IMG/VR virus record: IMGVR_UViG_3300031953_000063
Location: 1-37,642 of that record
Strand: one strand, 5' to 3'
Source of the DNA: a virus
Taxonomy: Duplodnaviria; Caudoviricetes
Length of the DNA: 37,642 nucleotides
The position numbers and the translations under genes were made by a program. Position 1 is the stretch's first letter; each line of letters begins with the position of its first letter. Positions 7,200-13,214 of the stretch are shown one piece after another. The notes beneath the pieces are model-generated. The model did no database searches. It had not been told where the DNA came from and saw only the letters and a list, made by a program, of their open reading frames with translations.

Positions 7200-7832
7200 A
7201 TGAAAACAGAAACAATTCAACAAAAAGCAAAAGACGGCCTATGGGTCGATGAGTCCGGGGTGCAAATTCCTTACAGTCGCATAACCACTGCCGAAAGGTT
7301 AATGGAGCGCCACAGCTGGAAGATCTTAAAAGGAGCGCTAGACATTAACAAACGCCTAGCAGACTTTAAAGACCAAATACGCGAGCTGTGCCAAGAAGCC
7401 CACGACGCTTTTATGAAGGAGCAAAACATTGCCCGCGAAACAAAAGGCAATTTTAGCTGGTTCAACTTTAATCGCACCATTAAAATTGAAATCAACGTAA
7501 ACGAGCCCATCCAGTTCGACGATATGACCATTACTGCCGCCAAAGCAAAGTTTGATGAATTTCTGGACGAAAACATAACCAGCAAAAACGAATTTGTAAA
7601 AGCAATGATAATCGATGCTTTTGAAACACAGCGCAATGGCCAGCTAGACACCAAAGCAGTTATGAAAATAACCCGATACGAAAAGCGTATAGACGACGCC
7701 AAGTTTTCTGCAGCTGTAGATCTAATCAACAGCGCCATTCGCCGCCCAAAAAGTAAAAGCTACTTCCGCGTTTCCGTAAGGAATGAAGAGGGTGGCTATG
7801 ATAATGTAGATCTTAATTTTTCTTCAATATAA
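7200..7832 (+). CDS. DUF3164-like Mu-type early protein
   Basis: Start ATG 7200; 'KGNFSWFNFNRTIKIE', 'RPKSKSYFRV...YDNVDLNFS'. Confidence 0.75.
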   Translation: MKTETIQQKAKDGLWVDESGVQIPYSRITTAERLMERHSWKILKGALDINKRLADFKDQIRELCQEAHDAFMKEQNIARETKGNFSWFNFNRTIKIEINVNEPIQFDDMTITAAKAKFDEFLDENITSKNEFVKAMIIDAFETQRNGQLDTKAVMKITRYEKRIDDAKFSAAVDLINSAIRRPKSKSYFRVSVRNEEGGYDNVDLNFSSI

Positions 7833-7834
7833 TT

Positions 7835-8176
7835 ATGGAAAAGCTAGAAAAAAGTATAAAAATAGTGAACTGGATCTTGGCAATTGCATTGTTCATAACC
7901 GTAATTCTTATGCTTTGGAATCCAACATTTTATAAGGCTAAGGTTATGATTACAATTTTACTGCTAATGTTTGGAGCATTTCTAGTAAAAACAAACTTAA
8001 CCGACGACGACGACACAGACGACTACGACCAAGGCACCACCACACAACCCAAAACCTGTGGCAAGTGCGACAAAGGCGTACTAAATACAGATTTCAGCTA
8101 TCAATACGAAGAGTGTCCGTGTGTAAAACCCCAACCACCTGCCACCTTTCGCCTAAAACCTACTACCTACCTATGA
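7835..8176 (+). CDS. Two-TM protein with acidic linker and Cys-rich (CxxC...CxC) tail
   Basis: Translation. Confidence 0.6.
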   Translation: MEKLEKSIKIVNWILAIALFITVILMLWNPTFYKAKVMITILLLMFGAFLVKTNLTDDDDTDDYDQGTTTQPKTCGKCDKGVLNTDFSYQYEECPCVKPQPPATFRLKPTTYL

Positions 8177-8403
8177 AACTACAGCAAATGCTAAACGATG
8201 CCACGGCAAGTATAAACCACCACGAAATAAAGAAAAAAATGGCAGTAACAATAACAGCACCACAAGACGACCAGTTGCTAATAAACGGCAAATTGGTGTA
8301 CCAGGATAGCAACGAAAAATGGATTGCAAGCGAAGAGCTTACCACGGCAGAAAACACCGCCTTCCGTACGCACTTGCAATCTAAAAGTAGAGTAAACGGG
8401 TGA
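8173..8403 (+). CDS. Hypothetical protein
   Basis: ATGA overlap at 8173; 'INGKLVYQDSNEKW'. Confidence 0.6.
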   Translation: MKLQQMLNDATASINHHEIKKKMAVTITAPQDDQLLINGKLVYQDSNEKWIASEELTTAENTAFRTHLQSKSRVNG

Positions 8404-8580
8404 GCGCGGGATGAAAAAGACCCAGAACAGGGACCTCAAAAGGCCAATCTGTAGCTTCATAAACTGAGCCCGTGCCGGAAACGGTTATAAAACAGTTTAG
8501 AAGTGGTAAGCGGGCCGCGCTCGGCAAGCATACATTACCCGTAAGATTGGCAAAAGCCGCGACCACTGCGTAAAGTGGTA
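8396..8580 (+). ncRNA. Putative structured ncRNA upstream of the tRNA-like element
   Basis: GAGCGCGG/CCGCGCTC closing stem, GNRA hairpin, several internal stems; GC-rich and non-coding. Confidence 0.5.
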
Positions 8581-11269: not shown

Positions 11270-11571
11270 AAATCTACATCACAGGAAAAGTAACCGGCGA
11301 ACCAATTGCAGAATGCACCATAAAGTTTGGCACCGCCCAAAAGCAATTAGAAGCCCTAGGCCACCAAGCCATAAACCCGCTTGCCGTAGTAAACGATTTT
11401 AAAGCCACTTGGCAGGATGCAATGAAACTTTGCATAAAAGCATTAATGGACGCAGATGCCATTTATCTACTAGCCTGCAGCAACAACAGCAAAGGCGCAG
11501 CGGTAGAAATAGAACTTGCAAAACACTTGCAAATACCAATGTTTAATAACCTTAAAAATATACCAAAATGA
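11266..11571 (+). CDS. DUF4406 family (nucleoside 2-deoxyribosyltransferase-like) protein
   Basis: 'KIYITGKVTG...INP...DADAIYLL...SKGAAVEIELA'. Confidence 0.85.
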   Translation: MKIYITGKVTGEPIAECTIKFGTAQKQLEALGHQAINPLAVVNDFKATWQDAMKLCIKALMDADAIYLLACSNNSKGAAVEIELAKHLQIPMFNNLKNIPK

Positions 11572-11807
11572 CAGATTTCCCTATTCTTTTCGCAATGCTA
11601 CTGGTGCTACTCGTATTTTTAGCCATACTTGGCCTTGGCATATTAGTAGGCGTTTATTGCTTTAAAGTAGCCGAATTTAAAGGCAACCTTAACCCAACAG
11701 ATCCCGAAATAGAAGCATTACCCCGCTGCAGCTGTTTTGACGTAAACGACTGCGATACCCAATGCCGTGCAAAGGCACTGTTTGCAAAATTTCCACCAGA
11801 AGCATAA
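11568..11807 (+). CDS. Single-TM protein with Cys-rich C-terminus
   Basis: Translation. Confidence 0.55.
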   Translation: MTDFPILFAMLLVLLVFLAILGLGILVGVYCFKVAEFKGNLNPTDPEIEALPRCSCFDVNDCDTQCRAKALFAKFPPEA

Positions 11808-11813
11808 CCCATT

Positions 11814-11948
11814 ATGGCGTATAAAAAAGCACCTAGTATAGAACATTTGCAGAAAAAGCAGCACCAAACCAGAATGAAACGAATGTTTTCAAAACCACGC
11901 ATTCTTGGCTATAAAGACATATTCGGAAAAAAGAAACCAGAAGCATAA
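11814..11948 (+). CDS. Small basic protein, 44 aa (not in ORF track)
   Basis: MAYKKAPSIEHLQKKQHQTRMKRMFSKPRILGYKDIFGKKKPEA fills the gap exactly. Confidence 0.55.
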   Translation: MAYKKAPSIEHLQKKQHQTRMKRMFSKPRILGYKDIFGKKKPEA

Positions 11949-11952
11949 CACT

Positions 11953-12240
11953 ATGAAATACACGCTCACACCCACCCAAAAGCAATATGTAATAGACAAC
12001 CGGTTTAATATGTCTATGAAGTTAATGGCAGCCAATTTAGGCATACCCTTTTCGCGCGTTCGCAATTATATGCAAGTAGATAAGCTAATGTTAACCCACG
12101 AACAAGTACAAAAACTAAAATACCAAAACCGTACTGGCGCCCCCAGACCAGAAAAAAGAAACGACTACCTACGCCCCCCACACGTACCAGAACCGTGGAA
12201 CCATTTTCTAAACCTTGTTACTATGCAAACTACGGTGTAA
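11953..12240 (+). CDS. HTH-containing protein
   Basis: Start ATG 11953; 'MSMKLMAANLGIPFSRVRNY'. Confidence 0.6.
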   Translation: MKYTLTPTQKQYVIDNRFNMSMKLMAANLGIPFSRVRNYMQVDKLMLTHEQVQKLKYQNRTGAPRPEKRNDYLRPPHVPEPWNHFLNLVTMQTTV

Positions 12241-12463
12241 TTAAGATAATTTAAAAAGGGATATAATGCAGAAATTAGTGGGTTTACCAACAGCAGAAAA
12301 GATAGTAAAATTGAAGGTGTCCAAAGCCTGTTTTCTGTTCCTAACGAGGGGGCTTAGGCTTGACCCAAAAGGAATATCGTTTAGTTGGACTGCAACCCTT
12401 TTTTATTAATTATAACGTTCAAGGCTATGCGTAGTTGCGGAATAATAACTAAAATTAATAGAT

Positions 12464-12724
12464 ATGGATATTGACCAAATAATTAAAAAGTACAACCTAA
12501 ATGTTGGGTCTAAAGACGGAATTTTGACAACAGACAGGGGTGAATTAGAAACCATTTTAAAAGAGTACCATACCGAGCAATTACGTATAGGTGGTGTTAG
12601 CCAACAACGTGAACTGTTATTAGATTTTACTGACAAGGTTATCAAATCACCACCTAGTTGTTTGTTGTATGGGAAACATATAGAGTTTATTGAAGATTAT
12701 TTAAAATATAATAATTGTGGCTAA
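12464..12724 (+). CDS. Hypothetical protein spanning an attC-like junction
   Basis: 86 aa; junction encodes 'QLRIGGVS'; stop lies within GGCTAAC. Confidence 0.65.
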   Translation: MDIDQIIKKYNLNVGSKDGILTTDRGELETILKEYHTEQLRIGGVSQQRELLLDFTDKVIKSPPSCLLYGKHIEFIEDYLKYNNCG

Positions 12725-12769
12725 CGTTCACTGGGTATAATTAGTTTTTTAACGATTAAATAAACAAAA

Positions 12770-13072
12770 ATGGAATTAAAGACAGCAATAGAGATATTAG
12801 ATTATCATCAAGAATGGAGACTTGGCAAACGAGACGATATGATTCACAAACCTAAAAAATTAACACAGGCTTTGGATATTGTGCTATTTGAAGTTAAAAA
12901 ATTAATTATACCCGTTGTTGTAAGTAGTGCTTCAGAATGCAGGCATAATAGCCAACAAGAAAAACTAAACATAGTACACTGGTATGATTTTGCAGAAAAT
13001 GAAATTGCCAATGGTAGAAAGCAGGAACAATGTATGAAGTGTAAAAAATGGTACTTCCCATCGGAATTATAG
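12770..13072 (+). CDS. Hypothetical protein spanning an attC-like junction, Cys-rich C-terminal half
   Basis: 100 aa; junction encodes 'KLIIPVVVS'; CxH...CxxC in the C-terminal half. Confidence 0.65.
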   Translation: MELKTAIEILDYHQEWRLGKRDDMIHKPKKLTQALDIVLFEVKKLIIPVVVSSASECRHNSQQEKLNIVHWYDFAENEIANGRKQEQCMKCKKWYFPSEL

Positions 13073-13214
13073 CATTACTTACAACATGTGTATATACGCC
13101 ACTCCCCAAAAAAAGTGTCGTATATACCCCCAAATAGACGTATATACGTCATAAAATTTTCCTATAAACAAAATATTTATTACCTTTAATTAACTCCCTT
13201 TAAAACCGTTCATT

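What the first reader, a model, noticed from the sequence alone, without database searches (positions are those of the whole stretch)
12234..13150. Array of abutting attC-like hairpins that split genes in frame: candidate combinatorial protein-shuffling system
Seen: two module types alternate. Type 1 runs TAACGTTCA..stem..[start codon and N-terminal half]..stem..GTT (12425-38/12577-90; 21-bp 12733-53/12893-913). Type 2 runs GTTR..[C-terminal half and stop]..YAAC with complementary ends (12596-607/12715-25; 12917-31/13071-85; degenerate 12234-44/12406-16). In both ORFs the junction GTT is an in-frame Val codon (LRIGG-V-S; LIIPV-V-VS), so exchange at G|TT would join any N-half to any C-half in frame. 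Substitution mismatches in the long stems are G.T on the sense strand. Established: integron attC sites are RYYYAAC...GTTRRRY ssDNA hairpins recombined at G|TT by IntI. Unlike canonical attC, the loop here holds half a gene and no integrase is encoded in the window. Inference: a cassette system that builds chimeric small proteins using a host or helper recombinase.
Basis: partly seen in the sequence, partly recalled or inferred. Interest (0 to 1): 0.87.

Follow-up and report, generated by a model that had tools for sequence, protein, structure and literature searches.

The report
Phage cassettes that remix protein halves
This Mu-like phage carries two tiny genes whose front halves sit inside integron-like DNA hairpin sites, and related phages show the same front half joined to dozens of unrelated back halves at one valine codon; the genes are likely moved whole by a small recombinase borrowed from another phage or the host, with rarer exchange at the valine likely building the hybrid proteins.

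Summary
The stems and both in-frame GTT(Val) junctions are confirmed. The window is a Mu-like phage of Bacteroidota with no tyrosine recombinase hit. Its two genes are integron-like cassettes read on the attC bottom strand: sense AA|C is the routine crossover and moves whole genes; sense GTT is the far box (R''), where halves are re-paired more slowly. ORF2's front half has 56 unrelated tails in homologues; its tail has four other front halves. The array ends in an attI-like site; 65 of 68 related platforms put this site just upstream of a ~265-aa tyrosine recombinase lacking the IntI insertion, also in cultured Polaribacter and Cellulophaga phages. The 'degenerate type 2' module is a decayed hairpin site holding an undescribed structured non-coding element. 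The frame lock is partly built into the site consensus, and about half of front-half homologues lack the junction. How GTT re-pairing happens is untested. Nine literature searches found attC clusters in phages (Qi 2023) but not the read-through or this enzyme. This scan noted the same system earlier on other genomes.

The parts
12231..12416 (+). Decayed hairpin site 0 (type 1, not type 2): worn AAC box, left arm, non-coding loop, right arm fused directly to the AAC of cassette 1; its back half is gone
   Evidence: 85% identical over 168 nt to L303:3475-3643, where the same sequence is the loop of an intact AAC-stem-stem-GTT site
12267..12394 (+). Candidate structured non-coding RNA (or ssDNA) carried in the loop of site 0
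   Evidence: 5 copies aligned incl. one in the tRNA cluster of Cellulophaga phage phi4:1; 13 of 30 predicted pairs show a two-sided change; no Rfam match over it; 47-codon ORF not kept in 3 of 5 copies
12410..12598 (+). Hairpin site 1 (attC-like, bottom strand = sense): R' box with AAC 12414-16, left arm 12425-38, loop with start codon and 44-aa front half, right arm 12577-90, R'' GTT 12596-98
   Evidence: same stem family around another loop and body in Polaribacter phage Freya_10
12416..12724 (+). Cassette 1 (309 bp) as cut at AA|C; inferred mobile unit
   Evidence: junction linkage in relatives
12464..12724 (+). ORF1, 86 aa; Val45 on the GTT; stop codon TAA lies in the next AAC box; back half of the VSQQRELL family
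   Evidence: VSQQRELL-type back halves follow many unrelated front halves
12596..12725 (+). Body 1 (back half), own ends complementary
12719..12919 (+). Hairpin site 2: AAC 12723-25, arms 12733-53 and 12893-913, loop with 49-aa front half, R'' GTT 12917-19
   Evidence: arms co-vary among relatives with the same loop
12725..13084 (+). Cassette 2 (360 bp) as cut at AA|C; next to attI, so likely the newest
12770..13072 (+). ORF2, 100 aa; helical front half under purifying selection, Val50 on the GTT, Cys/His-rich back half (likely zinc-binding)
   Evidence: (pN/pS 0.15 over 23 relatives)
12917..13085 (+). Body 2; same head and tail sequence follow a different hairpin and front half in L018
13070..13101 (+). 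attI-like entry site (AAC 13083-85, 5 nt, TATATAC); the recombinase gene that follows it in relatives is absent here
   Evidence: best hit in the whole window for a matrix built from 65 recombinase-linked sites: 11.4 bits, next 6.5; below the training minimum 19.9, near Freya_10's 13.5

Best explanation
The region is a short orphan array of integron-like cassettes whose genes run along the hairpin's bottom strand and start inside the hairpin loop; a small tyrosine recombinase supplied in trans likely inserts and excises whole genes at AA|C, and rarer exchange at the in-frame GTT, likely by the same enzyme acting on the opposite strand, would re-pair front and back halves. Shown by sequence comparison: site geometry (AAC, 7-9 nt, stem ... 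stem, 5 nt, GTT), strand asymmetry, sharp breakpoints at both boxes, an attI-like site, and tight linkage of such arrays to one recombinase family. Inferred: that this enzyme does the cutting, that folded single-stranded DNA is the substrate, and that it reaches this phage from a co-infecting phage or the host. Least certain: the GTT step. If two sites are cut on the top strand, the excised circle is the upstream back half plus the downstream hairpin, which is itself a valid new cassette with paired ends, and the array keeps the reciprocal hybrid; one event would make two chimeric genes.
For: Front half fixed, tail free: 116 of 120 listed ORF2 homologues share the front half, 90 of the 116 have Val at codon 50, 87 tails fall into 56 clusters; the other 4 share only the tail from that Val. 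DNA proof for this window's own body: L018. Whole-gene mobility: one gene sits behind 9 different upstream ends; hairpins at least 97/90/80% identical share the upstream neighbour in 0/32, 0/104, 0/317 pairs and the downstream half in 26/32, 32/104, 37/317. Platform: 65 of 68 recombinase loci have YAAC-N5-YATR 40-58 nt before the start (control 58 of 2474); 233 site hits upstream (158 kb) against 11 downstream (204 kb); G.T 329 against A.C 22 on the sense strand. Six of 6 pairs of near-identical platforms (4 pairs 100% over 300 nt) differ left of the AAC. Freya_10 and Danklef_1 share a 1169-bp block at 99.6% bounded by AAC at both ends. Host arrays of the same site type carry ordinary co-oriented genes in 12 of 13 cases, which fixes the orientation; Qi et al.'s bottom-strand oligo for P12002L_attC1 has this geometry and is the gene-sense strand. 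Top-strand cutting at R'' exists for IntI1 and rises when extrahelical bases are removed (PMC5027507, passages).
Against: No experiment on this enzyme; no recombinase in the window; contigs of four runs showed no joint at a cassette end. Only 35 of 80 front-half loci have GTT at codon 50, and 37 of 69 have no GTTR in codons 45-53: the front half also occurs alone or inside a body, so other routes of fusion exist. In same-hairpin, different-body pairs the first mismatch lay at +4,+4,+4,+6,+6,+11,+11,+13 from the G (8 pairs; 2 artefact rows dropped), which fits G|TT but also short-homology exchange. The Freya/Danklef breakpoint at GTT has no intact hairpin upstream. For IntI1 the top strand is about 1000-10000 times less used. 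Loops also vary within one stem family and both arms change together, which box-level cutting does not explain. Pair counts are not independent, and exact duplicate contexts were removed before counting. The detector has false hits (one is an ordinary CoaE gene) and sees only ungapped stems.
Confidence: 0.7

Rival explanations
1. Cassettes move by the recombinase at AA|C, but the joining of hairpin to body at GTT is a separate process (new-cassette genesis, template switching on folded DNA, or phage annealing proteins using the short shared stem and head sequences); chimeras are its by-product.
For: One hairpin type with many bodies is also the pattern of sedentary integrons (recalled), and no reliable model of cassette genesis exists (PMC4792948, passage). 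Some pairs stay identical 11-13 nt past the G. Both arms of a stem and both ends of a body change in step. Carrier phages encode RecT-type proteins.
Against: Same-body, different-hairpin pairs become identical right at the GTT (9 DNA pairs; L018); one-sided homologous exchange inside an arm would leave mismatched stems, yet stems are near perfect (though the detector selects for this).
Confidence: 0.3
2. One reading: two equally mobile module types are routinely swapped at G|TT, as a device selected to build chimeric proteins.
For: Many chimeras at one codon; read-through from a loop ATG is in frame 0 in 57 of 172 sites against 12 and 5 and 19 of 49 against 1 and 2.
Against: Near-identical bodies keep their hairpin (15 of 15 at 97%, 18 of 25 at 90%) while upstream neighbours never stay. 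Short non-coding sites are also stop-free mainly in frame 0 (87 of 112 against 44 and 49), so the frame needs no selection for shuffling.
Confidence: 0.1
3. The stems are mRNA structures that regulate translation, and the mosaic is ordinary phage recombination.
For: G.T on the sense strand fits RNA as well as DNA; starts lie in the loops.
Against: Breakpoints at AAC, attI-like site and recombinase linkage; the same sites in host chromosomes lie antisense to the genes.
Confidence: 0.03

Closest known systems
Integrons (IntI, attI, attC cassettes; VchIntIA PDB 2A3V)
   Same: AAC/GTT boxes, hairpin sites with G.T on the recombined strand, cassettes with complementary ends, attI-like site next to a divergent tyrosine recombinase with a SAM_4 domain, insertion next to the enzyme.
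   Different: Enzyme about 44 aa shorter in the IntI insertion region and below the TIGR02249 cut-off; spacers 7-9/5 nt instead of 6/5; in phages the genes run on the bottom strand, start inside the site and read through R''; new cassettes land at the 3' end of the gene row; loops up to about 190 nt carry protein domains or a structured RNA.
CALINs in phages, incl. Polaribacter phage P12002L (Qi et al. 2023, PMC9892861)
   Same: attC clusters without integrase in phages; P12002L_attC1 has exactly this geometry and orientation.
   Different: In the parts I read the paper does not describe read-through genes, chimeras, the attI-like site or the short recombinase; P12002L_attC1 was the one of six sites that IntI1 did not integrate; a read-through site in the same phage (40948-40762) is not among those tested.
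Reverse integrons of Treponema
   Same: Some host arrays of this family lie downstream of a co-oriented recombinase.
   Different: Label taken from a search listing and recall; it concerns integrase direction, not genes translated through attC.
Shufflons (Rci/sfx) and diversity-generating retroelements
   Same: Fixed front half with exchangeable back half in frame (recalled).
   Different: Shufflons invert a few segments at one locus; here cassettes are inserted and exchanged between genomes through folded sites, with an open-ended pool; no reverse transcriptase hit in the window.

Membership tests
Integron | Integrase gene in the element | tested here: not met
   No tyrosine recombinase among 61 window ORFs; present in relatives
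Integron | Integrase carries the IntI-specific C-terminal insertion | tested here: not met
   51 aa in Freya enzyme against 95 aa in VchIntIA between the matched blocks; 92-156 bits against TIGR02249 cut-off 265 for 7 enzymes; spacing fixed at 60 aa in 68 of 71
Integron | attI site beside the integrase where cassettes enter | tested here: met
   65 of 68 loci; variable left, constant right of AAC; degenerate copy at 13070-13101. Met by comparison, not by assay
Integron | attC hairpin with AAC/GTT boxes and bottom-strand G.T bias | tested here: met
Integron | Canonical attC spacing and extrahelical bases | tested here: not met
   Spacer difference +2 to +4 nt and unbroken stems; detector cannot see bulged stems, but pattern-anchored sites mostly fit too
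Integron | Cassette ends complementary to each other | tested here: met
   5.41 of 6 nt for own end against 3.31 for neighbour, 148 bodies
Integron | Cassette gene co-oriented with and ending before attC | tested here: not met
   Window and phage genes are antisense and overlap the site; host genes are canonical
Integron | Recombination of folded single strand by the enzyme | not testable with these tools
   needs an assay
CALIN | At least two attC sites, no integrase | tested here: inconclusive
   Two attC-like sites and no enzyme, but IntegronFinder/HattCI could not be run
Shufflon | Invertible segments with an adjacent invertase | tested here: not met
   All modules co-oriented; no recombinase in window

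The most novel reading that the evidence does not exclude
Bacteroidota phages run a proto-integron: a minimal tyrosine recombinase without the IntI insertion that cuts folded sites on both strands, so one strand moves genes and the other creates new cassettes by re-pairing hairpin-encoded N-terminal domains with zinc-ribbon and enzyme bodies. This would be a natural domain-shuffling engine, a working route of cassette genesis, and a living model of the integron's ancestor.
Probability: 0.4. Interest if true: 0.93.

Novelty: new variant of a known kind. Interest (0 to 1): 0.8.

Why it matters
Complete integrons are reported as nearly absent from Bacteroidetes (PMC9024848, passage), yet a parallel system is common there: a close enzyme homologue in 53 of 201 genomes sampled and 278 matching viral stretches. 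It bears on two open questions: how a gene becomes joined to an attC site, and how a recombinase handles folded DNA without the IntI insertion. It also gives a source for many tiny 'hypothetical' phage proteins: mosaics cut at one codon, 23 of 56 tail types with a CxxC motif against 0 of 183 control pieces. Cultured carriers (Freya, Danklef, Ingeline, phi13:2, P12002L) make it testable now.

Tried and rejected
Rfam: nothing over the array (one weak SurA hit elsewhere, below cut-off). No tRNA. Promoter/terminator scan near chance. Close relatives of this phage's flanking genes: none in viral contigs, so no empty-site genome for this exact locus. Sequencing runs: no RNA holder listed; contigs of 4 runs gave no joint at cassette ends, and depth differences between short contigs were not used. 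Freya isolate length differences looked like cassette loss, but one of two record ends checked falls mid-gene and the other at an AAC; not used. My early idea that both junctions are equally free was dropped. The Freya/Danklef GTT breakpoint was downgraded: no intact left arm. Atlas searches for both halves gave only unnamed clusters and sub-threshold zinc-finger leads. A pseudoknot count for the loop RNA was not obtained; only the RNAalifold result is used. L373/L374 were dropped from the RNA alignment as chance pattern hits (2 of 6). Of 104 distinct 14-mer hits, only those translating as VSQQR-EL/EM/KL were used.

Full report
Observation. The mismatches in the long stems are G.T on the sense strand, which folds 7.6 and 3.4 kcal/mol better than the other strand, though whole-module z-scores are weak (-0.36, -2.0) because the loops are long. 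The window is the whole held record, a Mu-like transposable phage whose best transposase match among 39 records is Winogradskyella phage Peternella_1 at 47%. No tyrosine recombinase was found among 61 ORFs.

The halves are reassorted. Of 442 ORF2 homologues, 120 were listed: 116 share the front half, with most of residues 3-44 at 81-100% identity and a collapse after Val50; 90 of the 116 have that Val; 87 tails form 56 clusters; the other 4 share only the tail, from the same Val. In L018 the head and tail of this window's body 2 follow a different hairpin and front half. ORF1's VSQQRELL-type tail follows many unrelated front halves. The ORF2 front half is under purifying selection (pN/pS 0.15, 23 relatives). 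Against a strict rule: only 35 of 80 front-half loci have GTT at codon 50 and 37 of 69 have no GTTR nearby.

Geometry. In 67 loci chosen for holding one anchored site, stems between YAAC and GTTR peak at a spacer excess of +2 to +4 nt (110 hits, about 14 in shuffles; G.T 160, A.C 12). In an independent set chosen by the recombinase, the peak holds (233 hits upstream in 158 kb, 11 downstream in 204 kb; G.T 329, A.C 22). G.T pairs mark the attC bottom strand in integrons (PMC5027507, passages). The bottom-strand oligo that Qi et al. give for P12002L_attC1 has this geometry and is the gene-sense strand of that phage. Host arrays of the same site type carry long genes in the ordinary direction in 12 of 13 cases, 10 stopping within 15 nt of the box (18 regions). 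So the phage genes run backwards through attC: sense AAC is R', sense GTT is R''.

Which junction moves. One gene sits behind nine different upstream ends. Among 334 sites from 144 loci, pairs with hairpins at least 97, 90 or 80% identical shared the upstream neighbour in 0 of 32, 0 of 104, 0 of 317 and the downstream body in 26, 32 and 37; bodies at least 97, 90 or 80% identical kept their hairpin in 15 of 15, 18 of 25, 29 of 41 (exact duplicate contexts removed first; pairs not independent). Identity switches on at the AAC and off just after the GTT. Bodies pair with their own end (5.41 of 6 nt, neighbour 3.31; 148 bodies). Whole genes therefore move at AA|C, and halves are re-paired at GTT on a slower clock.

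The platform. Cultured Freya_10 and Ingeline_1 have a 263-271-aa tyrosine recombinase right after such cassettes. It has SAM_4 and integrase domains, is about 44 aa shorter than VchIntIA in the insertion region and stays below the integron-integrase cut-off; that insertion is called essential for integron function (PMC8138268, passage). Of 278 matching viral stretches 80 were kept, 72 distinct; 65 of 68 with enough flank have YAAC-N5-YATR 40-58 nt before the start, against 58 of 2474 control windows. Six of 6 near-identical platform pairs differ left of the AAC. A matrix of these sites finds its best match in the window exactly at the array's end, 13070-13101, with a degenerate score. Freya_10 and Danklef_1 share a 99.6% block bounded by AAC, and their shared backbone ends at a GTT, without an intact hairpin there. 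Homologues occur in 53 of 201 genomes drawn from the phylum of G001.

The frame. Read-through from a loop ATG is frame 0 in 57 of 172 sites against 12 and 5; by length class 4 of 112 short, 79 of 159 middle, 42 of 56 long sites, the last including anchors. But short, non-coding sites are also stop-free mostly in frame 0 (87 against 44 and 49): the consensus blocks the other frames, so the lock need not have been selected for shuffling. Among 13 long read-through proteins, one is a DNA methylase, one a 3'-5' exonuclease, one a false hit.

The third module. 12234-12416 matches the loop of an intact hairpin site in L303. It is a decayed type-1 site whose loop is a conserved non-coding element, also found among tRNA genes of phi4:1, with two-sided changes at 13 of 30 predicted pairs in 5 copies and no Rfam match.

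Mechanism. Inferred: the enzyme, in trans, recombines the folded sense strand with attI at AA|C; cassette 2 came last. Less certain: top-strand cutting at R'', which IntI1 does rarely and more often without extrahelical bases, would excise body 1 with hairpin 2 as a valid new cassette and leave the reciprocal hybrid. A separate genesis or short-homology route remains a serious rival, and neither explains loop exchange inside one stem family.

Literature. Nine searches found no description of read-through attC sites or of this enzyme; the library lacks most subscription papers. Seen: PMC9892861, first seventh of the text, passages and part 1 of 2 of its supplement (its Dryad annotation file not seen and may mark more sites); passages only of PMC5027507, PMC4792948, PMC9024848, PMC8138268, PMC5737381; reverse integrons as listing only; shufflons and R'/R'' usage partly recalled. 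Earlier notes of this scan describe the same system on other genomes and gave me the Qi paper and the 'simpler recombinase' lead; the numbers above are my own.

Verdict. Works like an integron; not a member by the IntI and attC-geometry tests. New variant of a known kind, interest 0.8.

Noticed in passing
window 12267-12394; L371, L372, L375, L376: Conserved ~128-nt structured non-coding element with compensatory changes and possible crossing helices; no Rfam family; in an attC loop, beside cassettes, or in a phage tRNA cluster.
   Followed up: partly
L361 (G046:C33), also L360, L363, L364: Host arrays hold a repeated ORF-less unit, a symmetric 91-92-nt hairpin plus a 33-nt mini-body, five times in L361 and also next to the recombinase gene; looks like a selfish mini-cassette.
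   Followed up: no
L354, L357, L367, L368 against L360, L361, L363, L364: Two host layouts: array downstream of a co-oriented, often N-terminally extended recombinase, or upstream of a ~280-aa divergent one.
   Followed up: partly
window 13089-13147: GTATATAC occurs three times after the attI-like AAC; possible accessory binding boxes.
   Followed up: no
window 12425-12590 and L224:3791-3978; loci: The same stem surrounds unrelated loops, and the same loop is carried by different stems with both arms changed together: a third level of exchange, unexplained.
   Followed up: partly
L225 (Peternella_1) 11444-11954: The related Mu-like phage has two site hits in the same slot between early and neck genes, with no tyrosine recombinase annotated.
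   Followed up: no
L004, L009, L016 and similar; L006, L012: The ORF2 front half also occurs wholly inside a cassette body or as a stand-alone 48-50-aa gene.
   Followed up: partly
L235 (Danklef_1) 7728-8492: The array-linked recombinase matches only from residue 96 and is annotated in pieces, while the array differs from Freya's.
   Followed up: no
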